Assembly (NCBI GenBank): GCA_012557565.1
Contig: GCA_012557565.1_3926.1
Source of the DNA: a phage
Reading direction: 5' to 3' (one strand)
DNA length: 64,000 bases
Shown piece by piece: positions 2,931 through 59,392 of this stretch (position 1 is its first letter; each line of letters begins with the position of its first letter). Below the pieces are notes generated by a model that ran no database searches, was not told the DNA's origin, and was given only the letters and a program-made list of their open reading frames with translations. Position numbers and translations under genes: made by a program.

Positions 2931-2947
2931 TAAGTAAATTCCTAAAG

Positions 2948-2969
2948 GGCTGCTTCGGCAGCCTTTTTT
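2948..2969 (+). terminator. rho-independent terminator
   Basis: GGCTGC-TTCG-GCAGCC hairpin followed by TTTTTT. Confidence 0.6.
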
Positions 2970-2971
2970 AT

Positions 2972-2999
2972 TTGAAAAATGTGCAGGATGATGTATAAT
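2972..2999 (+). promoter_or_regulatory. sigma70-like promoter
   Basis: TTGAAA (2972-2977), 16-nt spacer containing TGTGCAGG, TATAAT (2994-2999); precedes CDS 3007. Confidence 0.5.
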
Positions 3000-3006
3000 T
3001 GTCTGC

Positions 3007-3579
3007 ATGTTTAACAAAATAGGAGTGCAAATGAAGAAATTTGTTTTAGGTTTGTGCTTATTCTTTACAGCACATTTAGCTACAGCATCTGACTGTCCAG
3101 AACTTACAATCAGTCAGAAAGTAAATATGTTAAAAGCATATAACTATGGCGAAGGACAGATGGGAAAAGGTTGGGGAATACCTTTAGCAGCTATAGCCTT
3201 ACAAGAGTCACAATTAGGTGTCATGTTAGAAAATAAAAGGACTCATGATTATGGTGTTTTCCAGAATCACTTGAAGACTGTTGTAAAGCGTAACAAAATA
3301 TCTCCAAAGGTTGCTAAGAAGAAGTTGGTAAGTGACTTCCATTACTCAGCAAAAGAGGCTCATAAAGAGTTGCTATTCTGGACAAAGGTTCACGGTAACC
3401 CAGATGGAAAGTACTCTATGAAGCGTGTCCTAGCTTCTTATAATGCTGGTTACAAATATAAGATTCCAAAGGCTAGACAATATTCTCAAGATGTGTACAA
3501 TAACATGAAATTGCTTGCTCAATGTGAGTTTGCAACAAACATTAAAAAGGTAAAATATGAGCGAATCAAAACAATTTGA
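3007..3579 (+). CDS. secreted lytic transglycosylase-like protein (SLT-like)
   Basis: N-terminal signal-peptide-like segment MKKFVLGLCLFFTAHLATA; segment AIALQESQLG...YGVFQ resembles the SLT-domain catalytic Glu-Ser region. Confidence 0.45.
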   Translation: MFNKIGVQMKKFVLGLCLFFTAHLATASDCPELTISQKVNMLKAYNYGEGQMGKGWGIPLAAIALQESQLGVMLENKRTHDYGVFQNHLKTVVKRNKISPKVAKKKLVSDFHYSAKEAHKELLFWTKVHGNPDGKYSMKRVLASYNAGYKYKIPKARQYSQDVYNNMKLLAQCEFATNIKKVKYERIKTI

Positions 3580-4252
3580 TACGGTTCTGTGTCATGCTTA
3601 TGATATCAAACCACTTGATTTAGATATCAGTTCTGCAAGCTGGTCAGACGTTGCTAAAGCTGACTTTGCAGATACAGCAAGATGTGTTGCATGTAGCTTT
3701 GAAGACTTTCATTCAACAAAGACACAGATTCCTTGTCAAGATTTGCTAACAGGTAAGACTGTATATGTGGGTCGTAATAGTCTTATCTTGGTTGCAAAGA
3801 ACTTGGAAGAAAAACGTAAAATGGTCTTAGCAGATATTGATGGTGTTCTTACAAGTTTTGATAAGAAACTTAATGCAACTCTGTTAGATGATGGTACTTA
3901 CTCACAGTACACTAACTTGGTGGACTCTCGCAGAGCTAAACCAACTTATGTTTTTAACATCCTGTGTGGGATATCACAAAATGCTGATATAGGATTCTTA
4001 ACTGCTCGTGGTGAATCACAGAGAGTGGTCACTCATCTCTTCCTGAATGAAAATGTAGACAGTGATTTCTTACTGTTTATGCGTGGATTTGGTGACAATG
4101 AGATTAGTGCAGAAAGTTTGAAAGTTCGTATGCTTCAGTCTTGCATTCTACCTTACTATGATGTAGTATGCTTTATAGAAGATACAGTAAAGAACGTGGC
4201 AAAGGTCGAAAGAATCCTTCCACACATTAAAACAATGTTAGTTAAAAACTGA
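3557..4252 (+). CDS. HAD-superfamily phosphatase (possible nucleotidase)
   Basis: HAD motif I-like LADIDGVLT (DxDG), motif II-like FLTARG, motif IV-like GFGDNE; 231 aa. Confidence 0.5.
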   Translation: MSESKQFDTVLCHAYDIKPLDLDISSASWSDVAKADFADTARCVACSFEDFHSTKTQIPCQDLLTGKTVYVGRNSLILVAKNLEEKRKMVLADIDGVLTSFDKKLNATLLDDGTYSQYTNLVDSRRAKPTYVFNILCGISQNADIGFLTARGESQRVVTHLFLNENVDSDFLLFMRGFGDNEISAESLKVRMLQSCILPYYDVVCFIEDTVKNVAKVERILPHIKTMLVKN

Positions 4253-6430: not shown

Positions 6431-7225
6431 ATGGGTATCGTAAAAATTATTAAAGGTGATATCTTTAAAGACTTTGATAATAAGAAGTTTGATATCATTG
6501 GTCACGGTTGTAACTGCATGAACTTAATGGGTGCAGGTATTGCAGCAACAATTGCTAAACGTTATCCAAAAGCTTATGAGACTGATGCTGAAGTTTATGC
6601 TACAGTTGGTGGTGAAGGTCATAAACCTAAGCATCTTATGCTTGGTAACATCTCTGTAGCACGTTTTAAGCAGGGTCGAATTGCTAACCTTTACACTCAG
6701 GTTATCACTGGTAAAGATGCACGATACAATGCTTTAGAAGCAGCTTTGCAGCGTCTTAATAACTACTGCAAAGTAAACCAGCTTAAGAAAGTTGGACTTC
6801 CTATGATTGGTGCAGGGATTGGTGGTCTTGATAGCATGGCTGTGCTGTCTATCATCAATCAGACCATGAAAGATGTTGACGTTTATATGTATGTCTATGA
6901 AGATAAGATGTACAGTCAGTTGACTAGTCCGGTTACTGGTTGGGAAAACTTTAGTGAACCTCAATACTTTGATGGTGTTGCCGTGGTAGGCAAGGATAAA
7001 GTTACTCTCAAGGTGAAGCGTAATGGTAAGGTACACACCAGTTACCCTCCGGTTGAGAAGTACAATCGAAGTAACGCTCAAGTTACCCACCCGTTACAAG
7101 GCCATTGTCACAGAGCCGTAACATTTGGTGATGATGCAAGTGTGTATATCGGTGCTGCTACAGAAGAGTTTGCAGAGGATTATATCACACATGAGAATGT
7201 TAACTATGTTGAAGCACGTAACTAA
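6431..7225 (+). CDS. macro-domain-like protein (putative ADP-ribose binding/hydrolase) with C-terminal extension
   Basis: N-terminal KGDIF...IIGHGCNCMNLMGAGIAATI and later LPMIGAGIGGL resemble macro-domain Gly-rich motifs; by-eye match only. Confidence 0.45.
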   Translation: MGIVKIIKGDIFKDFDNKKFDIIGHGCNCMNLMGAGIAATIAKRYPKAYETDAEVYATVGGEGHKPKHLMLGNISVARFKQGRIANLYTQVITGKDARYNALEAALQRLNNYCKVNQLKKVGLPMIGAGIGGLDSMAVLSIINQTMKDVDVYMYVYEDKMYSQLTSPVTGWENFSEPQYFDGVAVVGKDKVTLKVKRNGKVHTSYPPVEKYNRSNAQVTHPLQGHCHRAVTFGDDASVYIGAATEEFAEDYITHENVNYVEARN

Positions 7226-7240
7226 TAAGTTACCTAAATA

Positions 7241-7287
7241 GACATAGACAAGCCCTCCAAAGTTTGAGTTTAAAATCTCAGGTAAGG
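7241..7287 (+). terminator. rho-independent terminator (large loop)
   Basis: AGCCCTCC ... GGAGGGCT inverted repeat followed by TTTTT. Confidence 0.45.
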
Positions 7288-7480
7288 AGGGCTTTTTCAT
7301 TTCAAATTTGTGCAGGTGCAATTGCATAGAACTCTGGACAGATTTCTTTAGCTGAACTCCAAAGGGAAAATTCATTTTCAATTTGTGCAGGTCTAGACTC
7401 CAAAGGGCTTTTTCATTTTCAATCTGTGCAGATGCAGTTGGACTCCAAAGGGAAAATTCATTTTCAATTTGTGCAGGTAG
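7281..7480. repeat. four tandem direct repeats of a 36-bp unit (42-45 bp spacing) containing TGTGCAG
   Basis: Units near 7297, 7347, 7389, 7434: CTCCAAAGGG(AAAA/CTTT)TTCATTTTCAATTTGTGCAGG. Confidence 0.7.
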
Positions 7481-7651
7481 GTAGCTATAGGAAGCAAGAC
7501 CCACCATCCCCTCTTACTCCCCTTCCTCCCAAAAGTCAAGAGAAAAATTTGTAGAGAACTGAAAAATAATTCTTGACTAGTTTTCTGTTTTCTGTTAGTT
7601 GCGTACACGCGTTTCATTCACAACTTTCCAAAAATATTTTTAAAAATTTTG

Positions 7652-7680
7652 TTGACTCTATGAATCCAGTTTTGTAGTAT
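7652..7680 (+). promoter_or_regulatory. sigma70-like promoter
   Basis: TTGACT (7652-7657), 17-nt spacer, TAGTAT (7675-7680); AT-rich upstream. Confidence 0.55.
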
Positions 7681-7732
7681 TTGCATCAACGGGGCAAGCA
7701 AGCCCCAACAATCCTAAACTGGAGAATCTAAG

Positions 7733-7939
7733 ATGTTATATCAACGTGAATTAATGATTGTTGACAACAACAAAACAAAGAAACGCCGTTTTTATATGCT
7801 AATCTGCGACGTTTGGCAACGTATCTCAGAAAAGGATTTTGATAAATATGTTGATACGTCAATCAGGTCTGATTGTTACCTGACAAATCACACAAGACAA
7901 TTTACAAGACATACGGCAATTTATTACTATAACGTTTAA
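7733..7939 (+). CDS. hypothetical early protein
   Basis: 68-aa ORF directly behind conserved leader and promoter. Confidence 0.55.
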   Translation: MLYQRELMIVDNNKTKKRRFYMLICDVWQRISEKDFDKYVDTSIRSDCYLTNHTRQFTRHTAIYYYNV

Positions 7940-7950
7940 AGGGCTTGACA

Positions 7951-8112
7951 ATGATTAAAGAAGGTTATGTAATAAAGTACAAAGGGCAAGACGGATACAC
8001 AAAGTTGGGACGTGTTTTCTATCTCTATACTTCAGTGATGGGCAATGAGTGTATAGCCCTTACAAATGGCGACAAAATAACCATGAAAGATTTTATAAAA
8101 ATTATTTCATAA
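7951..8112 (+). CDS. hypothetical small protein (53 aa, not in ORF track)
   Basis: Hand-translated MIKEGYVIKYKGQDGYTKLG...; no conserved leader. Confidence 0.3.
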   Translation: MIKEGYVIKYKGQDGYTKLGRVFYLYTSVMGNECIALTNGDKITMKDFIKIIS

Positions 8113-8117
8113 AGTAC

Positions 8118-8146
8118 TTTACATGGGGTTTATAAATTGCTAGTAT
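8118..8146 (+). promoter_or_regulatory. sigma70-like promoter embedded in an inverted repeat (representative of several)
   Basis: TTTACA, 17-nt spacer, TAGTAT; arms TGGGGTTTATA / TATAAGCCCCA; near-identical copies near 8590, 8935, 9535, 10595. Confidence 0.5.
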
Positions 8147-8197
8147 AAGCCCCAGATAAAGAGCTTTACCAACAATCCTAAACTGGAGAATCTAAAA

Positions 8198-8578
8198 ATG
8201 AAATATCGTGCGCCTAAATTTATCAACAAAGAAAACTTTCGTGATGCTCTGGAAAATTCCATGAATGAGCAGTTCAAAGGTAAAATCATTGTTGTTCACG
8301 CTTACAATTTTAAGTATGATGTAAATGGTAACAAGATAAACCACTACACCGCTACAATGTTAGATGGTACACTCTCAGGAGAAAAGGCTATTATAAATGC
8401 ACTGGCTGGACGTGGTAAAACGTTAATCCGTTGCGATAAGCGCCGCTATCAAGGAAGTGCTTATGGTTATGAGGATGCAATCTATCATCTTGATAACATG
8501 GGTTACAACGTGGTAAAAGCTGGAGTATCTCAAATGATTGGCAGTGATGGCTATGTAACAATCTTTGAAATTAACTAA
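8198..8578 (+). CDS. hypothetical early protein
   Basis: 126-aa ORF behind conserved leader. Confidence 0.6.
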   Translation: MKYRAPKFINKENFRDALENSMNEQFKGKIIVVHAYNFKYDVNGNKINHYTATMLDGTLSGEKAIINALAGRGKTLIRCDKRRYQGSAYGYEDAIYHLDNMGYNVVKAGVSQMIGSDGYVTIFEIN

Positions 8579-8663
8579 TAAAGTACTTTACATGGGGTTT
8601 ATAGTTCGATAGGATAAGCCCCAGATAAAGAACTTTATCACTAACCTAAACTGGAGTTTTAAA

Positions 8664-8921
8664 ATGGCTACTATCAAAAATATCGTAATTACTGCAAAGT
8701 CCCGTGATGACGCTCGCGCAACTGCTAAAAAATTAAATGGCAAAGTGGTTGACAACGGAAAAGAATCTGCTGTAAGATGGGGTGTGAAGACAGACAAGAA
8801 ATTAACCCTTAAACATAGTTCTTACAACATGTTTAAAGGTGTGAAAACTATCGGTAACACTAACGTATTCACAAAGCAAGGTTACAAAATGCACTTATCA
8901 TTAACTGACAATTTAATCTGA
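8664..8921 (+). CDS. hypothetical early protein
   Basis: 85-aa ORF behind conserved leader. Confidence 0.6.
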   Translation: MATIKNIVITAKSRDDARATAKKLNGKVVDNGKESAVRWGVKTDKKLTLKHSSYNMFKGVKTIGNTNVFTKQGYKMHLSLTDNLI

Positions 8922-9012
8922 TAAAGTGCTTTACATGGGGTTTATAAGTTGTTAGTATAAGCCCCAGATAAAGAGCTTTACTAACCAATAGTCCTAAACT
9001 GGAGATTCTAAA

Positions 9013-9525
9013 ATGAAAACCACTGATGCTATTTTTGAAGTTGTAAAAGAAAAATACACCATTATTTATGCAGCAGTTAATTTCTATGAGCCTTCCCATT
9101 GTGTGGATAACTGGCAATTTACTGATGAGCATAAAGGAGGGATTACAATCAAAGTTAAGAATGCAGAACGTAACAGCTACAAATATGCAATCCCTACGCA
9201 TTACCCACTTTCACAGCTTGCCAGTGACTACGCAAAACAGGGAAGGGATAACCCATCATTGGAAGCTTACAAGAGCTTACAGGATGAGCTAGAAAGGGAT
9301 TTAGAAGCTAATAGTTATATCTTGTATGCCTCAGTAATTGACGCTGAAGGGAACACGGTTTTAAATAGTTTTTCTCTTGCGTACTCTTTTGATTGGTGCT
9401 ATCTTGACGGGGAAGATTTAGAGACACGTTTAGAAGAGGAAGTGTCGAACTCTGACGGGGAGACTGAAGTGATGGAACGTTTAGAAGCCTTGAAAGATTC
9501 AGTTATGAATATCTTTAATATCTAA
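9013..9525 (+). CDS. hypothetical early protein with acidic C-terminus
   Basis: 170-aa ORF behind conserved leader. Confidence 0.6.
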   Translation: MKTTDAIFEVVKEKYTIIYAAVNFYEPSHCVDNWQFTDEHKGGITIKVKNAERNSYKYAIPTHYPLSQLASDYAKQGRDNPSLEAYKSLQDELERDLEANSYILYASVIDAEGNTVLNSFSLAYSFDWCYLDGEDLETRLEEEVSNSDGETEVMERLEALKDSVMNIFNI

Positions 9526-9608
9526 AAGTGCTTTACATGGGGTTATCAAGTTGATAAGATAGCCCCAGATAAAGAGCTTTACCAACAATCCTAAACTGGA
9601 GAATCAAA

Positions 9609-9905
9609 ATGTTTATTGCCGCAAACGTTAGAACTAAATTAAGCCAACTATTAAACAACATTCAATTCATTGAATCTATGCGCCGTCAATCTGAAGCTGT
9701 AGAGTGGTATCATGGAAAGATTAACAAAAAAGAAGTAATAGTTTGTGTATGGAACTTTTGTAGAGAATACAAAAAGCCGTTGCTTCAGGTTGATATCTAT
9801 GATAACACTAACAAGTCATCGATTAAGACCACTAGAGATATGATTGATTCATATGAAATTAGTCACACTGGAAAATTATTTCACAAAGGCGTAAACAAAT
9901 GTTAA
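9609..9905 (+). CDS. hypothetical early protein
   Basis: 98-aa ORF behind conserved leader. Confidence 0.6.
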   Translation: MFIAANVRTKLSQLLNNIQFIESMRRQSEAVEWYHGKINKKEVIVCVWNFCREYKKPLLQVDIYDNTNKSSIKTTRDMIDSYEISHTGKLFHKGVNKC

Positions 9906-10246
9906 TCACATATACAGCTATTTTTATCTCTATTGTGGCGCTCTATAAAGCCTTTAAAGCGCATCAGTTAGCTAATAAGGCAATCACAAGGGATTTAAAA
10001 ATAAACCTTGTAAGGGGCTTTATAGAGCGTTTAAGCTTGGAACAATTGAAACGTTTAGAGATGAGCTTTCGATTTAAAGCGGAGACATACAGAATCGACA
10101 ACATTCTAGCAGGTGATTTTAAGCTAATTAGTGATTATGACATACTGTTAGAAGCAATTCAAGATATAAATTTAAAAGATTATTACATCGTAATAGCTCA
10201 AGAAATTAATAAAAAAGAGCTTGCAATGAAAAACCAAAACAAGTAA
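9899..10246 (+). CDS. hypothetical membrane protein
   Basis: 115-aa ORF with N-terminal hydrophobic helix; start overlaps upstream stop; 3' end carries promoter-like TTGCAA...TAAAGT. Confidence 0.5.
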   Translation: MLITYTAIFISIVALYKAFKAHQLANKAITRDLKINLVRGFIERLSLEQLKRLEMSFRFKAETYRIDNILAGDFKLISDYDILLEAIQDINLKDYYIVIAQEINKKELAMKNQNK

Positions 10247-10311
10247 AGTATTTATCAACGGGGAGGGAAAACTCCCCCACTAAGCAAAATTCCTAAACTG
10301 GAGAATCTAAA

Positions 10312-10584
10312 ATGTATACAACTAACAATGGTCATACCCTTAATGTAACTCTAAAGCACTATGTAGACGGTGTATTGAACTTTGAAGAGTTAAGAGCAGA
10401 ACAGCATTTATTAGACTGGCAAGTAGCAGGACTGCAAAAAACTGCTACGGGGTACGGTACAAAAATTCCTACATCTTGGAAAGTACGCTATTTAGGAAAG
10501 TTACGAAGAATTTATCAAGATGTTTATAGCAATAGTGGTGTAAGTTACATTATTGTTAACGGTAAAAAGTTGTATTTAGTCTAA
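10312..10584 (+). CDS. hypothetical early protein
   Basis: 90-aa ORF behind conserved leader. Confidence 0.6.
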   Translation: MYTTNNGHTLNVTLKHYVDGVLNFEELRAEQHLLDWQVAGLQKTATGYGTKIPTSWKVRYLGKLRRIYQDVYSNSGVSYIIVNGKKLYLV

Positions 10585-10672
10585 TAAATTGCTTTACATG
10601 GGGTTATCAGGTTGATAAGATAGCCCCAGATAAAGAGATTTATCTGACACTAACCTAAACTGGAGAATCAAA

Positions 10673-11080
10673 ATGACTACTATTAATCATAAAGAAGTTG
10701 CAATTCTGAAAGCACGTTTGACTATTAACCGTATCAACATTGTCACATCAGCAGCACCAGATGAAACATTGCATAATATTATTGGTAAAATTCAGGGTGT
10801 AGTAGTAGATGTAAAACAGATTAAAGAAGCTTTACAAGACGTAGCAGCGGGGGCTATAATTGACGGCGCACAATATGAAATGCAGGAAATGCTTTCAAAA
10901 TCTAGAGTAATGAATAAAGAATTAGACTTGAAGATGTTTCGATTTGCTGTTAAAGTATGGCTATGTGTTGATTTTGATGCTAACTTTGCAATAGCTGATT
11001 TCTTTGCTACATGGTTACAGCGTAATTTACCATCAGAAAAATTTCGTGAAATTTGCGATGCAATTTATTCAGAAATTTGA
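10673..11080 (+). CDS. hypothetical early protein
   Basis: 135-aa ORF behind conserved leader. Confidence 0.6.
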   Translation: MTTINHKEVAILKARLTINRINIVTSAAPDETLHNIIGKIQGVVVDVKQIKEALQDVAAGAIIDGAQYEMQEMLSKSRVMNKELDLKMFRFAVKVWLCVDFDANFAIADFFATWLQRNLPSEKFREICDAIYSEI

Positions 11081-11161
11081 TTGACACTGCAAAAACATAG
11101 TAGTAAAGTACACATCAACGGGGCAAGCAAGCCCCAACAATCCTAAACTGGAGAATCTAAA

Positions 11162-11719
11162 ATGAAATGCTTTCATGGTACTACTCAAGAAAACTTTTTA
11201 AACCTTATCAATGGCGGTGAAAAACCATCAGGGGCTTGGAATTGCTCTGATATGGATGGATGTTTTTACGTGTACCCTGTTAATAAGTTCTATGATGTAG
11301 AAAGTTTAGACGACGAACAAATCACAAACGAAGGTATTAGAAACGCGCTTGATAGCGCAAGCATTACAGCAGCGTATCAAATGAAGTCTCAAAAACTTGT
11401 TATCTTGGAACTTGACATTCCAGAGGAAGATTTACAAGATGACTGGAGTTGTGAGAATATGAGCGACGTTGCAAGCTTTACAGAATACTTTGATAAGGCA
11501 TGGATTAAAAAGATTTACACAACTGAATTTAACGCTATGTTTTCACCTTTCTTTGTTCCTAATCTGAATAACAAAAATTTGGGGTATATGCCTGACGAAC
11601 TACACAACATTGCAACAATGGTACAGCGTAGCGATGAAATGAATAATGTGTATATAGATATCTATGAATCTATGCACGAAAACGTAGCAGAAACGGCTTT
11701 AAGCGATTTAACAGCATAA
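11162..11719 (+). CDS. hypothetical early protein (acidic)
   Basis: 185-aa ORF behind conserved leader. Confidence 0.6.
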   Translation: MKCFHGTTQENFLNLINGGEKPSGAWNCSDMDGCFYVYPVNKFYDVESLDDEQITNEGIRNALDSASITAAYQMKSQKLVILELDIPEEDLQDDWSCENMSDVASFTEYFDKAWIKKIYTTEFNAMFSPFFVPNLNNKNLGYMPDELHNIATMVQRSDEMNNVYIDIYESMHENVAETALSDLTA

Positions 11720-11782
11720 ACTATAGAATCGTACCAGTTAACTAGAAAATCCCCGCATAGGGGCTTACAAGAGGCTTAAATA

Positions 11783-12013
11783 ATGCTTACAACAATCTAT
11801 CTTATCCTGTCTATTTGCAACGGCTCACAATGTGACTTCAAAGGATTAGAAGAGTTTACAGGAAGCGAAAACAATGCTATTGTAGCATGTCAGATAGCAA
11901 GGCAAGACTATCCCACATCGGATGATATACAGTGTTACTATAAATCAGAAGATGAGGAGGGGATTTACTTTGATAGTGTGAATGGTGAATATGAAATTCT
12001 TATTGAAAAGTAG
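11783..12013 (+). CDS. hypothetical small secreted/lipoprotein-like protein
   Basis: 76-aa ORF with N-terminal hydrophobic segment MLTTIYLILSICNGSQC; own SD AAGAGG; different leader. Confidence 0.45.
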   Translation: MLTTIYLILSICNGSQCDFKGLEEFTGSENNAIVACQIARQDYPTSDDIQCYYKSEDEEGIYFDSVNGEYEILIEK

Positions 12014-12100
12014 TTGACACTGGAAACGCAAACAAGTAAAGTATTTATCAACGGGGAGGGAATGACCTTCCCCAACAATCCTAAACTGGAGAATCTAAAA

Positions 12101-12442
12101 ATGGCATACGTAACAATTATCACTGATAAAGAAAACTCTTCTTGGTCTACACAAGTAAACGACAAAATGACACCTATGCAATGCCTCAAATACTTTGAGC
12201 AATGGAACAGGGGGGAAGATGTAAGTCCTTTCCAAGTAATGCAGGTTGTGCATGTTGACAATGAAGGGAACAAAACTACACTTAACACTGAATACTATGC
12301 TACACGTTTTGATACTCGCAAAGAAGCTATGCGGGAACTAAGAGAAAAGGGCTATAGTCACATTGCCGCTTTGATTTGGTCTGATTTGCTTAAAAAACAA
12401 GCATTAACCTATGTCAAGCCAGAAAAAATCTTTATAAGCTAA
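12101..12442 (+). CDS. hypothetical early protein (start trimmed from track 12014 to the leader ATG)
   Basis: Track ORF runs through the promoter and leader; the ATG at 12101 sits immediately behind the conserved leader. Confidence 0.55.
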   Translation: MAYVTIITDKENSSWSTQVNDKMTPMQCLKYFEQWNRGEDVSPFQVMQVVHVDNEGNKTTLNTEYYATRFDTRKEAMRELREKGYSHIAALIWSDLLKKQALTYVKPEKIFIS

Positions 12443-12640
12443 TCAATGACTTACAAAAATCTTTGAAAAAACTGTTGACAATACCCCTTGACATTGATAG
12501 ATTTGTTCGAGGGGGTTTATCTAAAGGGATTCACTTAAAAGATTCTTTATAGATAAGCTGAAAATTCTCTTGCAATGGGTTATCAAAATCTGTATAGTTT
12601 CAATCAAGCAATGAAACAATCCTAAACTGGAGAATCTAAG

Positions 12641-12778
12641 ATGTTAGAAGTCATTAAAAACCCTATCTTGTGTGGAATGATTGTATCTTTCGTTATTCCT
12701 TTTGGTCTTCTGATAGCAAGTGAAATTCAAGATTATTTCTTCAATAAAAAGCTTGCAATGACCAACAAAAACAAGTAA
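12641..12778 (+). CDS. hypothetical small membrane peptide (45 aa, not in ORF track)
   Basis: Conserved leader immediately upstream; hydrophobic core; C-terminus resembles that of ORF 9899-10246. Confidence 0.45.
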   Translation: MLEVIKNPILCGMIVSFVIPFGLLIASEIQDYFFNKKLAMTNKNK

Positions 12779-12840
12779 AGTACTTATCAACGGGGAAGGA
12801 TAGGACTTCCCCACTAAATCCTAAACTGGAGAATCTAAAA

Positions 12841-13368
12841 ATGAATAAGTTTCAAGCTATCAATCATATCCGTTCCAATGCCGTGATGAGCAAGCCAGTA
12901 AAAGACACTTTCGAATTTCGCTGCAATGACAAGTTGTTTGCAGTCATTACGAAAGGGGAGGATAAAAAATATTATGTACATCGCCAAAACGTTAAGGTAG
13001 TAACAGCAGATAACTTTATGCAAGCTGTTGCAACAATCCTCCCTGATTTTATGGCACTAGTCGCAGAACTTTGTGAACATTGCATCAAATCATCAAAAGA
13101 AGAGTTAAACCGCTTTAAAATGGCTTATGAGCGCTCTATCAAGTCCCATAACATGTATATCATGCCGTTGGCACATGGGATTATGGCGATGGGTACAGGT
13201 TGCCACCCTTGCAAGCTTTACGACGTAGAAAACATCTATCTAAGCGAGACAAAAGACAGTGATTTTAACTTACAGTTAGGGCAAGCATTGAATGATATGA
13301 TTAAACTACACGAAAAATCTGTAAAAGATATGGAAAAAGAGCTTGACGAAATCATCAGAACTCTATAA
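12841..13368 (+). CDS. hypothetical early protein
   Basis: 175-aa ORF behind conserved leader. Confidence 0.6.
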   Translation: MNKFQAINHIRSNAVMSKPVKDTFEFRCNDKLFAVITKGEDKKYYVHRQNVKVVTADNFMQAVATILPDFMALVAELCEHCIKSSKEELNRFKMAYERSIKSHNMYIMPLAHGIMAMGTGCHPCKLYDVENIYLSETKDSDFNLQLGQALNDMIKLHEKSVKDMEKELDEIIRTL

Positions 13369-13427
13369 AGTACTCATCAACGGGGAGGGAATGACCTTCC
13401 CCAACAATCCTAAACTGGAGACTAGAA

Positions 13428-13691
13428 ATGAATAACGCAGAAATCACTATCCTGTTACAGATTGGTACTGACAAAGAAGATATCCAACTTTGCAAACGTA
13501 TAGAAAGTGACTGGTTTAACGGTGAAATCATCGCAGAATCTTATGAAGTAGTTGGATTCATGAATGGTGAAATTGTAAGCCATTTCGGTTTAACTAAATC
13601 TGAAGCCGTTGCAAAGTATGACGTTTTATCTTGTGAGATTCTTACAAAATACAATGAAAAAAGACTTGCAACTTATGCAGCAATGAATTAA
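13428..13691 (+). CDS. hypothetical early protein
   Basis: 87-aa ORF behind conserved leader. Confidence 0.6.
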   Translation: MNNAEITILLQIGTDKEDIQLCKRIESDWFNGEIIAESYEVVGFMNGEIVSHFGLTKSEAVAKYDVLSCEILTKYNEKRLATYAAMN

Positions 13692-13756
13692 TATTACTTT
13701 CAACGGGGAGGGAATGACCTTCCCCACTAAACAACCCTAAACTGGAGACTTAAAAG

Positions 13757-13933
13757 ATGAATTTTGAACAGCGTATGATTGCAAAATTTGGTGCTAAACG
13801 TTGGGAAGAAATGAAAAAAGAGCATGAAGAAAAGAAAAATGAAGAGATGGTAGTCATCACTGGTACAGACTTGTTAAATCATTCAGTTACTAACTACATC
13901 ATTTCCGGTAACTCTTACAAGAAAGTGATTTAA
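13757..13933 (+). CDS. hypothetical small protein (58 aa, not in ORF track)
   Basis: Conserved leader variant upstream; hand-translated MNFEQRMIAKFGAKRWEEMKK... Confidence 0.4.
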   Translation: MNFEQRMIAKFGAKRWEEMKKEHEEKKNEEMVVITGTDLLNHSVTNYIISGNSYKKVI

Positions 13934-14009
13934 AGTATTGACAAGGGGGCTTCAAAGCCCCTACTATAGAGACTCAATAAACAATAATCCTAAACTGGAG
14001 ATTCTAAAA

Positions 14010-14258
14010 ATGGCAACTATCCGCGCAACTGTTAACAATTTTGGTTTTTATGCTCTGGACGTTAAGTTTGACATGGTAAACACTGGAAATGCTTTTGATA
14101 TGGTTGATATGTGTCTGAAAGCAACTGTGAAAGAATACAACCCTGCTGAATGGTTCTGGAAAGAAACGAAAGAGGAGATTTTAGCAAATGGCGTTTTATC
14201 TTACTATTGGGGCGATTCTCTTATCTCTATCTATTACGATAAAGAAGGCCGCAACTAA
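14010..14258 (+). CDS. hypothetical early protein (start trimmed from track 13938)
   Basis: ATG at 14010 behind conserved leader; promoter with hairpin in spacer at about 13938-13970. Confidence 0.55.
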   Translation: MATIRATVNNFGFYALDVKFDMVNTGNAFDMVDMCLKATVKEYNPAEWFWKETKEEILANGVLSYYWGDSLISIYYDKEGRN

Positions 14259-14300
14259 CAAGACGCCGCAACGGGGCAAATAGCCCCAGACACCTTTACA

Positions 14301-14321
14301 GCCCCTTCAATGGGGCTTTTT
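14301..14321 (+). terminator. rho-independent terminator ending the early array
   Basis: GCCCC-TTCAAT-GGGGC hairpin followed by TTTTT. Confidence 0.6.
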
Positions 14322-14699
14322 GACGTCTATACAGAACCCTTCCTAGAATCTTACCAGACCTTTAGAATAATAACTCTATAGCTTACTCTATATCATCTTA
14401 TCAAGTCAACTAACTTTTCCCTTAAATATAAGCCCATAACCCGAAAGGGAAGGGCAATCCCTAAAACGCCCTAAAACGCTCTATACGGGCTTATCATCTC
14501 ATCTTAAGCAATCATATTAACCACTTCTTAAAAGCCCTTTATAGAGCTTTCTAGAGCCTTAAAAGAATCTTATAAGGGGTATAAGCTTTATTATCTCGTT
14601 AGTATCTTGTGAATAGTTAAACAGGGGCTTGATAATAGCTTCAAAGTATGCTATGGAGTCTAAAAAGAGCTTAAAAGTAACGTAAAAGTTAGCCCCCTT

Positions 14700-15200
14700 T
14701 ACATTCTCTTAACAAAATCTTAACAAATGCAACATAGTTATGCTTGTTAGCCCCTTGTTAAATCCTTGTTAGTGGTATGTTAAGAGCTTGTTAGACACTT
14801 TGAAGTCCCTGTATAAGCCCCTGTAAAGGGCTATAAAGAGCTATATAGTCAGTTGGGCTATAGATACTAGTAAGAACCTTAGAAGAGGTCACACAGAGCT
14901 ATACAGGGCTTTTAAGAGGTATGTTTAGAGAATCACTGAGAGGGATAGGGAACGATAAGAGAAGAGATAGTGACCATGTTAATAGATTGTTAAACATGTT
15001 AAGAACTTAATAGACACTTGTTAATAATCTTAACAAAATAACTTTTAAATTTAACATGTTAGGGACTTGTTAGCATCTTGTTAGAACCTTGTAAGAACTG
15101 TTAAGCACTTGTTACACCCTTGTTAGTTCTGTTAAGAAACTGTTAAGAACTTTAGAGACTTGTTAGGGACTTGTTAGAGTTGTAAAGAAATTGTTAATGA
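14700..15200. repeat. cluster of short phased repeats (CTTGTTAG / CTGTTAAG and inverse TTAACAA), about 10-12 bp apart
   Basis: 15 or more copies of TTGTTA(G/A) or TGTTAAG, densest at 15055-15180; no ORF over 60 aa. Confidence 0.7.
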
Positions 15201-15265
15201 TATTTTAAGATTTTGCAAAGGGGATGTTACAGGGCTGTTAAGGGCTACTAAGCAGATATACATCC

Positions 15266-15289
15266 ATGAGGTAGATTCTACCGAATCCA
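15266..15289. repeat. 24-bp element ATGAGGTAGATTCTACCGAATCCA, copy 1
   Basis: Near-identical second copy at 15889-15912; each contains an internal palindrome. Confidence 0.6.
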
Positions 15290-15589
15290 CTAGTAGATAT
15301 TTTTCAGATTCTCCCAAGAACCTAAAAAGTGACCTACCTAGTCTATTTTATAAAAATTTTATAGAACTGAATAACTATCTATACACTATCTTATATAAAA
15401 CAGGAATTAACAGGCTTATAAGATATCTTGTTAGTAACGTGTTAGACCTTGTAGGATAAGCCTTAGAAGGGAATACCTGTTTAGTGTTATATAACAGTCT
15501 ATATAGAGGCTTAGTAATCCCTAGTGATTCTGCTATATAGGGTACTATCTTGGACATAATGGGTTACTGTTAAGTAACACAGATAACCT

Positions 15590-15790
15590 AGAGATTAAGA
15601 TGGGTATAGGGGCTTCTAAGGGGCTAGGAAGAGGTTAGGAAGGTGATTGTATAGGGTTGATTAATGGTAGGCTTAGAAGGCTTTATAGAGGGCTATATAG
15701 AGAGCACTATTTAGGGACTAAGAGGCTATATAGATACTATATAATACTATATAGAGATGATGCTTAGAGAGGGTGTTTAGAAGGGTATAG
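15590..15790. repeat. second short-repeat cluster (GGCTATATAGAG-like and CTTAGAAGG-like motifs)
   Basis: Repeated CTATATAG and TTAGAAGG words; further copies near 14840, 15461, 15500, 15530. Confidence 0.6.
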
Positions 15791-15888
15791 ATATTTTATC
15801 ACATATCATGGTGACCCAAGATGAACGGAGTGAATCCCAAATTTTATAAAAATATAAATTTCGTAAATTTTACTCAATAAAAACCCCT

Positions 15889-15912
15889 ATGAGATAGATT
15901 CTATCGAATCCA
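15889..15912. repeat. 24-bp element ATGAGATAGATTCTATCGAATCCA, copy 2
   Basis: Matches copy 1 at 22 of 24 positions; lies just beyond the 3' end of minus-strand CDS 15933-16604. Confidence 0.6.
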
Positions 15913-15932
15913 TTTTAAGGGGCTGTATAGTC

Positions 15933-58272: not shown

Positions 58273-58572
58273 TTAATCTGCCAGCCTTAAGTTAAAATTT
58301 ACACCAAGTTTTGTACAAGCATTAAGCATGTACTCTAAAGAAATCTTTTGAGGGTCGTTAATGATATTTGACACACGACTCTGTGAGATTTCACAAACAG
58401 TTGCTACTTGAGCCTGAGAAAGTTTTAGCTTCTCAATCTCTTTAGAGAATCTGAAAGATACAAAGTCTTTCATCTCTTCTATATCCATTGGACAGATATA
58501 ACTCTCCATTTCAGCCTCTCTATCAGCCTCCCAAGAATCTTGAGGTGCATATGGGTCAAAGACTTCATTCAT
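58273..58572 (-). CDS. helix-turn-helix (XRE-like) DNA-binding protein
   Basis: Segment LKLSQAQVATVCEISQSRVSNIIN resembles the Cro/C1-type HTH. Confidence 0.5.
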   Translation of the reverse strand: MNEVFDPYAPQDSWEADREAEMESYICPMDIEEMKDFVSFRFSKEIEKLKLSQAQVATVCEISQSRVSNIINDPQKISLEYMLNACTKLGVNFNLRLAD

Positions 58573-59157: not shown

Positions 59158-59392
59158 CTCCGAGGTTTCTGACGGGTTCCTATATAATTTTCTATATAGG
59201 TAGTATACCCGTCAGGTTACTCATGTCAACAATTTTATACTAAATACATTCTAACTGCTGCATTTACTGCAAATGACAACAGAGTAAGGGCTAAGGCTGC
59301 TTTGTATGTTATGCTTAAAAGTTTACTTATGAAGTAAGATAATGATAAAACAACAAAAACAAACAGGATAATTGTGCTAAACATACTAACCT

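What the first reader, a model, noticed from the sequence alone, without database searches (positions are those of the whole stretch)
7281..7480. Four tandem copies of a 36-bp unit (42-45 bp spacing) carrying TGTGCAGG, upstream of the early array
CTCCAAAGGG(AAAA/CTTT)TTCATTTTCAATTTGTGCAGG is repeated four times directly after a terminator and before the first early promoter. The same TTGTGCAGG/ATGTGCAGG word recurs once more inside the promoter at 2972-2999, and I found it nowhere else in the window. The spacing is about four helical turns, which would put bound proteins on one face of the DNA. It could be an operator or enhancer array, or part of a replication origin.
Basis: seen in the sequence. 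Interest (0 to 1): 0.5.

Follow-up and report, generated by a model that had tools for sequence, protein, structure and literature searches.

The report
Conserved binding-site array, Felix-O1-like phages
A non-coding stretch of this Felix-O1-like phage carries four copies of a two-part DNA word that has stayed almost unchanged across several phage genera, so it is very probably a docking array for an unidentified DNA-binding factor, at the point where one operon ends and the block of small early genes begins.

Summary
The repeat is real, but its anatomy needs correcting. Four direct units lie at 7291-7478, with start-to-start spacing of 75, 41 and 45 bp. Unit 1 is fused to the tail of a strong intrinsic terminator. 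What is conserved is a bipartite word: G, an A/T run, TCATTT, 7 variable bases, GTGCAG. TGTGCAGG is not the conserved element.

The window is an Ounavirinae phage closest to phiSUSP1 and Moogle. The word occurs exactly four times in the window (0 expected). A one-mismatch copy sits inside a promoter at 2968-2986. In complete Felix O1 these five sites are the only ones.

In 26 distinct four-unit relatives, 4 of 48 hexamer columns vary, against 61 of 104 other columns. Erwinia phage phiEa21-4 has four units at the same place, all ending GTGCAT. Its flanking macro-domain protein matches at only 36% identity. A third lineage has about five units.

The array is not coding, not a structured RNA, not a run of terminators or sigma-70 promoters, not curved DNA and not the genome end. 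The terminal repeat maps about 7.2 kb away.

Best reading: a unique cis-acting array of double-stranded DNA binding sites, probably transcriptional control or insulation. The reader protein and the precise function are unknown. I found no description of it in the literature I searched.

The parts
7250..7305 (+). Intrinsic terminator ending the rII-to-macro-domain operon. Long imperfect hairpin 7250-7294, then the tail CTTTTTCATTT. Homologue of Felix O1 terminator t13.
   Evidence: Fold: dG -21.3 kcal/mol, z = -5.08, 0 of 200 shuffles as stable. The hairpin appears in both the MFE and centroid folds of the whole region. Felix O1 t13 at 7947-7994 is listed in PMC3185647, Table 2.
7291..7317 (+). 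Unit 1: G-CTTTT-TCATTT-CAAATTT-GTGCAG-GT. The first hexamer is part of the terminator's T-rich tail.
7366..7392 (+). Unit 2: G-AAAAT-TCATTT-TCAATTT-GTGCAG-GT, preceded by CTCCAAAGG (7357-7365). This unit is missing in the 3-unit relatives.
7407..7433 (+). Unit 3: G-CTTTT-TCATTT-TCAATCT-GTGCAG-AT, preceded by CTCCAAAGG (7398-7406).
7452..7478 (+). Unit 4: G-AAAAT-TCATTT-TCAATTT-GTGCAG-GT, preceded by CTCCAAAGG (7443-7451). In Felix-O1-type genomes a small GC hairpin, CCCCGCTCAGGTCGGG, takes the place of that word.
7500..7530 (.). C-rich tract. Its minus strand reads GGG..GGGG..GGGG..GGG. It is conserved in the Felix, Moogle and phiEa21-4 types, and replaced by a plus-strand G-rich sequence in wV8/VpaE1-type genomes. 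Role unknown.
   Evidence: Alignments.
7511..7539 (-). Leftward promoter-like site pointing into the array: TTGACT (7539-7534), 17 bp, TAAGAG (7516-7511). The -10 is poor here. It is better in wV8-type genomes (TTGACT-17-TAGCCT) and in phiEa21-4 (TTGACG-18-TATACT). Inferred only.
   Evidence: Read from the sequences. No transcript data.
7573..7601 (+). Rightward promoter-like site P1: TTGACT-17-TAGTTG, preceded by a conserved A/T-rich stretch. The -10 lacks the final T.
   Evidence: conserved TTGAyT ... TAgtyG.
7652..7680 (+). Rightward early promoter-like site P2, TTGACT-17-TAGTAT, ahead of the first small early gene (7733-7939).
   Evidence: Promoter scan; ORF list.
2968..2999 (+). Single fifth site: TTATTT-N7-GTGCAG-N7-TATAAT. 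It lies directly after the rIIB terminator hairpin (2944-2967) and overlaps an extended -10 promoter for the next gene (3007-3579).
   Evidence: It is conserved in Felix O1 at 3519 and in relatives, with variable bases on both sides; 2 of 10 distinct sequences have GTGTAG.

Best explanation
The four units are binding sites on double-stranded DNA for one sequence-specific factor, most likely a protein, phage- or host-encoded. The factor reads two fixed hexamers, TCATTT and GTGCAG, 13 bp apart start to start, next to an A/T run.

The array is a cis element found in one array per genome. It sits at the junction between the terminator of the rII-to-macro-domain operon and the back-to-back promoter-like region that heads the terminal block of small early genes.

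The most likely job is transcriptional control or insulation of that junction. A multi-protein complex on the array would block or modulate RNA polymerase passing through in either direction. In Felix-O1-like phages the same factor would also act at the single site overlapping the promoter after rIIB.

Shown: the anatomy, the uniqueness in the genome, the selection on the two hexamers, the conservation across genera, and the exclusion of coding, RNA-structure, terminator, promoter, curvature and genome-end explanations.

Inferred: that a protein binds, which protein it is, and that the output is transcriptional.
For: 1. Selection on the hexamers. Across 26 distinct four-unit arrays, 4 of 48 hexamer columns vary against 61 of 104 other columns (Fisher p = 1.5e-9). 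Minor-base cells are 5 of 1248 against 326 of 2704. The position table from 110 units is.

2. No concerted evolution. Units are orthologous by position, each with its own flanks kept across genomes, so the sameness is not homogenisation.

3. The non-coding region is as conserved as the genes beside it. Between the window and Felix O1 the array is 76.5% identical and the whole spacer 73.3%. Flanking genes are 64.5-78.6% identical. The macro-domain protein is only about 62% identical.

4. Conservation across lineages.
- phiEa21-4 (Kolesnikvirus) has four units at the same place. Its macro-domain protein is 36% identical over the aligned part.
- All four of its units end GTGCAT instead of GTGCAG, and the word occurs nowhere else in that genome.
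- Lineage L067 has about five units ending GTGCATAGG.

5. Uniqueness. There are 4 exact sites in the window, with 0 in shuffles. Complete Felix O1 has only the array plus the site after rIIB. No matching contig from an enterobacterial genome was found in a scan of 185,579 species' genomes.

6. Double-stranded DNA rather than RNA.
- The 5-base tract before TCATTT is an A run in some units and a T run in others, but almost always A/T.
- The fifth site lies between a terminator and the inferred start of the next transcript.
- Folds are no better than shuffles: z = -0.39 and -0.83.

7. Link to transcription. At the fifth site GTGCAG is kept between variable bases, 7 bp upstream of TATAAT. RT-PCR in Felix O1 detected a transcript for 'ORF14' peaking at 25 min, while ORF13 and ORF16 peak at 5 min (PMC3185647). 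The paper's numbering places ORF14 between ORF13 and ORF15, that is, in this spacer. That placement is my inference.
Against: - No binding protein is identified.
- The one annotated regulator is a Cro/CI-type HTH protein at window 58273-58572. It is present in essentially the same set of about 259 records as the array, but has no detectable homologue in phiEa21-4, which keeps the array.
- The units are asymmetric direct repeats, unlike classical HTH operators.
- They lie 95-300 bp from the rightward promoter-like sites, at variable distance, so simple promoter occlusion is excluded.
- One array cannot by itself switch off the roughly 15 separately promoted early genes.
- A unique, essential-looking cis site is also what an origin or a DNA-entry signal would look like.
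- There are no strand-specific transcript data.
Confidence: 0.45

Rival explanations
1. Replication origin. The units would be iteron-like or unwinding-element repeats, with replication primed by transcription from the adjacent promoter-like sites. The leftward one would transcribe first through the G/C-rich tract and then into the A/T-rich units.
For: - It is a unique cis site, with one array per genome.
- It consists of 3-5 direct repeats of about 25 bp with A/T-rich cores.
- It is flanked by back-to-back promoter-like sites in three lineages.
- Felix O1 is annotated with a T7-like primase-helicase, polymerase and exonuclease. From general knowledge, T7's primary origin is promoters plus an A/T-rich stretch.
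Against: - GC skew only dips at 7.0-8.5 kb and does not change sign. The real switch, at about 16 kb, follows the change in transcription direction.
- No initiator gene lies next to the array, and all neighbouring early proteins lack known domains.
- From general knowledge, T7-type replication needs no iteron-binding initiator.
- Spacing of 37-75 bp is unlike the roughly 22 bp typical of iterons.
- The fifth site in a promoter is not explained.
- There are no DnaA boxes in the window's array.
Confidence: 0.15
2. DNA-entry checkpoint or DnaA-binding array, comparable to the injection-stop region proposed for phage T5. The array marks the inner edge of the terminal early block (the last 6-9.5% of the genome) and would hold or release incoming DNA through a host protein such as DnaA.
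For: - The array lies about 7.8 kb (window), 5.2 kb (Felix O1) and 8 kb (phiEa21-4) from the right genome end. The end was mapped through the 581-bp terminal repeat of Pr103Blw.
- The early genes between the array and the end are transcribed towards the end.
- The reverse complements of the phiEa21-4 units are CTATGCACA and TTATGCACG, each 8 of 9 matches to the DnaA box TTATNCACA (read).
- The T5 stop region is a conserved non-coding repeat region with 8 DnaA boxes, including TTATGCACA (bioRxiv 10.1101/866236).
Against: - The window's units read ACCTGCACA, 6 of 9, and no DnaA box with up to 1 mismatch falls in the array.
- Many units have CGTGCA, which breaks the CACA end of the box.
- I found no report of two-step injection in Felix-O1-like phages.
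- I compared the motif with about 15 factor consensuses from memory, so one 8-of-9 resemblance is weak evidence.
- The T5 model is itself only computational.
Confidence: 0.08
3. RNA-level element. A leftward non-coding RNA starting near 7505 and ending at the reversed terminator hairpin would carry four repeats of CUGCAC-N7-AAAUGA. These would act as a sponge or antisense regulator.
For: - Leftward promoter-like sites point into the array in three lineages.
- A transcript from what I take to be this spacer peaks at a different time from its neighbours (PMC3185647). The assay was not strand-specific.
Against: - Folds are no better than shuffles.
- No Rfam match.
- The A-run and T-run versions of the tract would be very different in RNA.
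- The fifth site has no leftward promoter.
- The -10 of the leftward site is poor in this window (TAAGAG).
- ATG is not kept: phiEa21-4 unit 2 has TTATTT, hence ATA on the other strand.
Confidence: 0.08
4. Evolutionary relic. The units would be tandem duplications of the terminator tail whose hairpins collapsed, kept by chance or by recombination between modules, with no function of their own.
For: - Unit 1 is the terminator tail.
- CTCCAAAG|GGGC looks like the two hairpin arms joined after loss of the loop.
- CTTTTTCATTT is also the tail of another terminator in these phages, t5.
- The array is a module boundary. Megablast similarity to several Felix-O1-type genomes starts at window 7271-7278.
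Against: - Hexamer-specific conservation with drifting spacers is not what relics or recombination linkers show.
- The array persists where the flanking protein is only 36-62% identical.
- All four phiEa21-4 units share the same G-to-T change.
- Units 2-4 have no hairpin: z = 0.1, 2.0 and 0.35.
- This may well explain the origin of the units, but not their maintenance.
Confidence: 0.05

Closest known systems
Non-coding repeat regions of the phage T5 first-step-transfer DNA (injection-stop region with paired DnaA boxes)
   Same: Both are in virulent enterobacterial phages with terminal repeats. Both have a terminal block of small early genes driven by host-type promoters. Both have a non-coding repeat region more conserved than the neighbouring genes, with function still unproven.
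   Different: - The T5 region is 1.2-1.6 kb of nested inverted repeats and palindromes with consensus DnaA boxes, inside a 10-kb terminal repeat.
- Here there are four simple direct units in about 190 bp, outside the terminal repeat.
- The window's units are not DnaA boxes.
- I found no report of two-step injection for this group.
Iterons of plasmid and phage origins (for example the four repeats of lambda ori, or P1 and F origin repeats); from general knowledge
   Same: Three to five direct repeats of about 20 bp, unique in the genome, with fixed positions inside each unit.
   Different: - Iterons are usually spaced about 22 bp apart.
- They lie in or beside the initiator gene, next to an A/T-rich unwinding region and DnaA boxes.
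- None of that was found here.
Lambda cosB R sites and other small-terminase recognition repeats; from general knowledge
   Same: Several short sites spaced roughly 40-50 bp apart, read by one DNA-binding protein, unique in the genome.
   Different: Those sites lie beside the cutting site. Here the genome ends map about 7.2 kb away. No small terminase has been identified in Felix O1 (PMC3185647).
Centromere-like direct-repeat arrays such as F plasmid sopC (tandem 43-bp repeats); from general knowledge
   Same: Direct repeats with a period near 40-45 bp, each carrying a short protein-binding word.
   Different: sopC units contain an inverted repeat and serve partition of a plasmid. This is a virulent phage with no partition genes found in the parts examined.
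Promoter-plus-stem-loop cassettes between small early genes of T4-type phages; from general knowledge
   Same: Repeated regulatory sequences at the borders of variable early genes. This window's early block does have promoter-plus-hairpin cassettes before each gene.
   Different: The four units are not promoters and have no stem-loops. They occur in one array per genome, not before each gene.

Membership tests
Intrinsic (Rho-independent) terminator | Stable G+C-rich hairpin directly followed by a T run | tested here: met
   True only for unit 1. Hairpin 7250-7294 has dG -21.3 kcal/mol and z = -5.08, followed by CTTTTTCATTT.
Intrinsic (Rho-independent) terminator | The same hairpin plus T run in units 2, 3 and 4 | tested here: not met
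   Fold energies are -6.2, -1.8 and -5.5 kcal/mol, with z = 0.11, 2.01 and 0.35. These are no better than shuffles.
Sigma-70 promoter | -35 and -10 hexamers 16-18 bp apart, or an extended -10 | tested here: not met
   No TAnnnT lies at a fixed distance after GTGCAG in units 1-4 of the window, Felix O1 or phiEa21-4 (sequences). Only the separate site at 2968-2999 has TGTATAAT.
DnaA-box array (oriC-like, datA-like, T5 stop region) | 9-mers matching TTWTNCACA with at most one mismatch | tested here: not met
   No such match lies inside 7281-7480. The units read ACCTGCACA, 3 mismatches. The phiEa21-4 units do reach 8 of 9.
Iteron-type replication origin | Direct repeats of about 17-25 bp with fixed positions, unique in the genome | tested here: met
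Iteron-type replication origin | Adjacent initiator gene, and a compositional-skew switch at the site | tested here: not met
   Neighbouring proteins have no known domains apart from the macro domain. GC skew stays positive across 7 kb and switches at about 16 kb.
Iteron-type replication origin | Supports initiation of replication | not testable with these tools
   Needs marker-frequency or plasmid-replication experiments.
Classical repressor operator (Cro/CI-type HTH dimer) | Two-fold symmetric site overlapping or next to the regulated promoter | tested here: not met
   The hexamers TCATTT and GTGCAG are not each other's reverse complement. The units are direct repeats lying 95 bp or more from the rightward promoter-like sites. 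The fifth site does overlap a promoter.
Terminal repeat or packaging site | Coincides with or abuts the physical genome ends | tested here: not met
   The 581-bp terminal repeat of Pr103Blw aligns from window 14692, so it spans about 14692-15270. That is about 7.2 kb from the array. Repeat sizes of 581-613 bp are reported in PMC8303462, PMC6454146 and PMC4837284.
Structured non-coding RNA | Fold more stable than shuffles, or a match to a described family | tested here: not met
   z = -0.39 for the plus strand and -0.83 for the minus strand. The best Rfam hits have E of about 1 or more and lie far below the gathering scores.
Protein-coding gene (annotated 'hypothetical protein' on the minus strand in several records) | Reading frame and protein sequence conserved among relatives | tested here: not met
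   The minus-strand ORFs use different frames in the Moogle/window type and the Felix type. They differ by non-conservative changes and have variable starts and ends. The 41-bp spacing breaks the frame.
Intrinsically curved upstream DNA | Predicted curvature well above the genome background | tested here: not met
   With a wedge-model path, the end-to-end ratio over the array falls at about the 20th-70th percentile of the window, depending on centre and span. The model parameters were recalled from memory.

The most novel reading that the evidence does not exclude
The array is the cis-acting checkpoint at the inner border of a first-entering terminal early block. It would be a Felix-O1-group counterpart of the T5 injection-stop signal. 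It would be read by a membrane-associated host protein such as DnaA, so that DNA entry or its coupling to transcription pauses there until early proteins are made.
Probability: 0.07. Interest if true: 0.8.

Novelty: new member of a known kind. Interest (0 to 1): 0.5.

Why it matters
Felix-O1-like phages are widely used for Salmonella and E. coli typing, biocontrol and therapy. Yet the genome paper states that how their transcription is timed is not known.

This array is the most constrained non-coding element found here in that group:
- it occurs in one array per genome;
- it is older than the split between the enterobacterial genera and the Erwinia phages;
- I did not find it described in the literature I could search.

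It gives a short, defined bait (two hexamers, four copies) for fishing out the factor that reads it. It also gives a precise target for mutation.

If the factor is a regulator, that opens the temporal programme of the group to study. If the array turns out to be an origin or an entry signal, it would locate a function that is currently unmapped. It is also a handy sequence marker for the subfamily.

Tried and rejected
- **TGTGCAGG as the key word.** Not significant alone.
- **Genome end or packaging site.** The terminal repeat maps to about 14692-15270.
- **Minus-strand gene.** Frames are not conserved.
- **Structured RNA or a known RNA family.** Rejected.
- **Array of terminators.** Units 2-4 have no hairpin.
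- **Array of sigma-70 or sigma-54 promoters.** Inspection shows no -10 at a fixed distance and the wrong spacing for sigma-54.
- **Static DNA bend.** Predicted curvature is ordinary.
- **Origin by skew.** No switch at the array.
- **DnaA boxes in the window.** None.
- **Host-factor consensuses.** I compared the motif from memory with IHF, Fis, CRP, MarA/Rob, ArgR, Fur and LexA. None fits all units. These are leads only, not tests.
- **Reader protein by neighbourhood.**
  - The first early genes differ between genera.
  - The early proteins shared across genera have no known domains.
  - The gene after the fifth site has only a weak, below-threshold transglycosylase (SLT) match.
- **The HTH protein as universal reader.** It is absent from phiEa21-4.
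- **Arrays in bacterial genomes.** Only unrelated chance hits.
- **Two unrelated viral contigs with two copies of the word (L040, L046).** They share no homology with this phage and are probably chance tandem duplications.
- **Collection hits from other scans.** Most hits to the GTGCAT pattern, and the great majority of the 94 metagenome hits, are not this element. The ones inspected were coding repeats.
- **Literature searches.**
  - One was wasted by a loose term setting.
  - A search for Felixounavirus transcriptome work returned nothing.
  - Two other searches, on VpaE1 promoters and on Ounavirinae intergenic direct repeats, returned nothing relevant.

Full report
**What the window is.** The region around the finding is 97% identical to Escherichia phage phiSUSP1 and 95-99% identical to Citrobacter phage Moogle. 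Both belong to the Ounavirinae, the Felix-O1-like myophages. The finding lies in a 507-bp spacer, 7226-7732. Upstream is a macro-domain gene, annotated 'phosphatase' (6431-7225, plus strand). Downstream is the first of a run of small genes of unknown function, each with its own promoter-like site.

**Checking the observation.** The repeat is real.
- The repeat finder reports four copies, with start-to-start spacing of 75, 41 and 45 bp.
- Tandem Repeats Finder reports 2.9 copies of period 45 at 7356-7478.
- The 21-mer TTCATTTTCAATTTGTGCAGG is found four times with up to three mismatches, and never in shuffled sequence.

- Only units 2-4 are tandem at 41-45 bp and carry CTCCAAAGGG.
- The first unit lies 75 bp upstream and is fused to the 3' arm and T-rich tail of a terminator.
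- Unit 3 reads TGTGCAGA, not TGTGCAGG.
- The 8-mer TGTGCAGG alone is not significant: 4 found, 2.09 expected.
- The terminator is genuine: hairpin 7250-7294, -21.3 kcal/mol, z = -5.1. Units 2-4 have no hairpin of their own.
- The extra TGTGCAGG at 2980 is there, inside a promoter.

**The real motif.** Units from relatives were lined up. They share two hexamers, TCATTT and GTGCAG, always separated by exactly 7 variable bases. Before them come a G and a 5-base tract that is almost always A/T. In the window this bipartite word occurs exactly four times, against none in shuffles. With one mismatch allowed there are two more hits. One, at 59258, looks like chance. The other, at 2968, has the same context as the units: a terminator, a T run, TTATTT, 7 bases, GTGCAG.

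**Conservation within the group.**
- The spacer matches 256 phage records, at about 76% identity in Felix O1 itself.
- I collected 28 distinct arrays that carry the downstream anchor sequence. Of these, 26 have four units and 2 have three, with unit 2 missing. The commonest spacings are 73/39/45 and 75/41/45. Metagenome contigs add more, including another three-unit variant.
- Each unit keeps its own flanks across genomes, so the units are orthologous by position rather than homogenised.
- Across the 26 four-unit arrays, 4 of 48 hexamer columns vary, against 61 of 104 other columns (Fisher p = 1.5e-9).
- Rare single-unit lesions exist: CCATTT in one genome, GTGTAG in a few, and a small deletion in one. 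One damaged unit is therefore tolerated.
- Between the window and Felix O1 the array is 76.5% identical. Neighbouring genes are 64.5-78.6% identical. The macro-domain protein is only about 62% identical.
- In complete Felix O1 the word occurs only in the array and, with one mismatch, after the rIIB terminator.

**Conservation across genera.** Erwinia phage phiEa21-4 (Kolesnikvirus) has a macro-domain protein that matches at only 36% identity over the aligned part. Downstream of that gene's terminator it carries four units with the same design, spaced 37, 37 and 39 bp and followed by a C-rich tract.
- All four end GTGCAT instead of GTGCAG.
- One unit has TTATTT.
- The word occurs nowhere else in that genome.
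- One unit, GGTCTGGCAAGAAAAATCATTTT, is nearly the same as Felix O1 unit 4, GGTCGGGCAAGAAAAATCATTTT. This points to shared descent rather than convergence.

A third, unnamed lineage (an 88-kb contig, L067) has about five units ending GTGCATAGG at the same place. Three are intact and two degenerate. The spacing in phiEa21-4, about 3.5 helical turns, removes the 'same face of the helix' argument.

**What it is not.**
- Not the genome end. Felix-O1-like phages have terminal repeats of 581-613 bp. The annotated repeat of Pr103Blw aligns from window 14692, about 7.2 kb away.
- Not a gene. Minus-strand ORFs run through the array in every genome and are annotated in some records. Their frames and sequences are not conserved between groups.
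- Not a structured RNA.
- Not a stack of terminators.
- Not promoters. No -10 element follows the units.
- Not unusually curved DNA (the model parameters were recalled from memory).
- Not marked by a skew switch.
- Not DnaA boxes in this window.
- Not present as an array in enterobacterial genomes.

**Why double-stranded DNA and a bound factor.**
1. The tract before TCATTT is an A run in some units and a T run in others, but almost always A/T. That fits a feature of the duplex, such as a narrow groove, and would be a large difference in RNA.
2. The fifth site lies between a terminator and the inferred start of the next transcript. Even there GTGCAG is kept while the bases on both sides change.
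3. Two fixed hexamers with a free spacer of fixed length is the usual signature of a protein contacting two patches of DNA.

**Context and likely role.** Downstream of the array lie, in order:
- a C-rich tract, which becomes a plus-strand G-rich sequence in wV8/VpaE1-type genomes;
- a fully conserved A/T-rich stretch that contains a leftward -35-like TTGACT;
- two rightward promoter-like sites.

A leftward promoter-like site facing the array can also be read in wV8-type genomes (TTGACT-17-TAGCCT) and in phiEa21-4 (TTGACG-18-TATACT). In this window its -10 is poor. The array therefore sits where read-through from the upstream operon and any leftward transcription would meet. In Felix O1, RT-PCR detected a transcript for 'ORF14' peaking at 25 min, while ORF13 and ORF16 peak at 5 min. 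The gene after the fifth site (ORF3) is also in the 25-min class. The paper's numbering places ORF14 in this spacer, which is my inference. The assay was coarse and not strand-specific.

I therefore favour a protein complex on the array that controls or insulates transcription at this junction, with the same factor acting at the promoter after rIIB. This step is inference.

**Candidate readers.** The only annotated regulator is a Cro/CI-type HTH protein: Felix O1 ORF85, or window 58273-58572 on the minus strand. It is found in essentially the same set of about 259 records as the array. It has no detectable homologue in phiEa21-4. It is thus a weak candidate, or the Erwinia phages use another protein. 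Early proteins shared between the genera have no known domains. A host factor common to Enterobacterales remains possible.

**Rivals.**
- Origin of replication. It fits the uniqueness and the flanking promoter-like sites. It lacks a skew signal, an initiator gene and DnaA boxes, and does not explain the fifth site.
- T5-like DNA-entry checkpoint. It is suggested by the position at the inner edge of the terminal early block, and by the 8-of-9 DnaA-box resemblance of the phiEa21-4 units. The window's units do not pass the DnaA-box test, and I found no report of two-step entry for this group.
- Relic of terminator duplication. The units probably did arise this way. CTCCAAAG|GGGC looks like a collapsed hairpin, and CTTTTTCATTT is also the tail of terminator t5 in these phages. 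That does not explain why the hexamers are maintained.

**Literature.** The Felix O1 genome paper lists the terminator (t13) and several other direct repeats but not this array. It states that temporal regulation is unknown. Searches for transcriptome or repeat descriptions in this group found nothing relevant. Only the open-access library could be searched. The phiEa21-4 genome paper was not retrieved or read.

**Verdict.** This is a real, deeply conserved cis element, apparently undescribed, present as a single array per genome. It belongs to a familiar general kind, tandem sites for a DNA-binding factor, but its reader and exact function are unknown. Interest is moderate.

Noticed in passing
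window 14259-15932: A 1.67-kb non-coding region lies between the end of the plus-strand early block and the first minus-strand gene. It is packed with short tandem repeats of period 10-11, such as TGTTAAGAACT and CTATATAGATA. The homologue of the 581-bp terminal repeat of Pr103Blw starts at 14692, so the physical genome ends probably lie here. In size and repeat content it recalls the T5 non-coding stop region.
   Followed up: partly
window 7500-7530: A C-rich tract sits in an otherwise A/T-rich phage. Its minus strand has four G runs, a quadruplex-type pattern. It is conserved in the Felix, Moogle and phiEa21-4 types. In wV8/VpaE1-type genomes it is replaced by a plus-strand G-rich sequence that looks partly like its inversion.
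   Followed up: partly
window 7528-7547; loci L015, L021, L023, L025: The 20-mer CCAAAAGTCAAGAGAAAAAT also occurs exactly, sometimes several times per contig, in unrelated viral contigs. There it is the -35 and upstream part of consensus promoters on the other strand (TTGACTTTTGG...TATAAT). In two of these contigs (L021, L025) it lies next to TTGCACAAA/TTTGTGCAA inverted repeats.
   Followed up: partly
window 2944-2999: A terminator is followed at once by an extended -10 promoter (TGTATAAT) that carries one copy of the array's word. By the curvature model this spot is among the most curved in the window.
   Followed up: partly
window 7733-14258: In the early block almost every small gene is preceded by its own TTTACA/TTGACA promoter-like site. 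Several genes also have a short GC hairpin just before the ribosome-binding site; Mordin annotates such 14-bp repeats before some of them. This resembles the promoter-plus-stem-loop cassettes of T4-type phages.
   Followed up: no
window 29259-29814: A tandem duplication of a 272-bp unit (2.0 copies, 76% identical) lies in the tRNA region. It includes what looks like the 3' end of a tRNA and the start of a small ORF.
   Followed up: no
window 58273-58572 (minus strand): A 99-residue Cro/CI-type helix-turn-helix protein, 72% identical to Felix O1 ORF85. It is the only annotated transcription regulator of the group, and it is absent from Erwinia phage phiEa21-4.
   Followed up: partly
locus L040 (reverse strand), about 3900-3980: An unrelated 10-kb viral contig has two 50-bp tandem repeats, each with A-run, TCATTT, 7 bases, GTGCAG. 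They lie upstream of a promoter-like site, a 151-residue ORF and a terminase-like large ORF. This is probably coincidence, but the design is the same.
   Followed up: partly
window 7271-7278: Megablast similarity to several Felix-O1-type genomes (SUSP2, mistaenkt, PC79-13 and pEC-M719-6WT.1) begins exactly at the terminator's 3' arm and unit 1. The array is therefore also a boundary between a divergent module and a conserved one.
   Followed up: no
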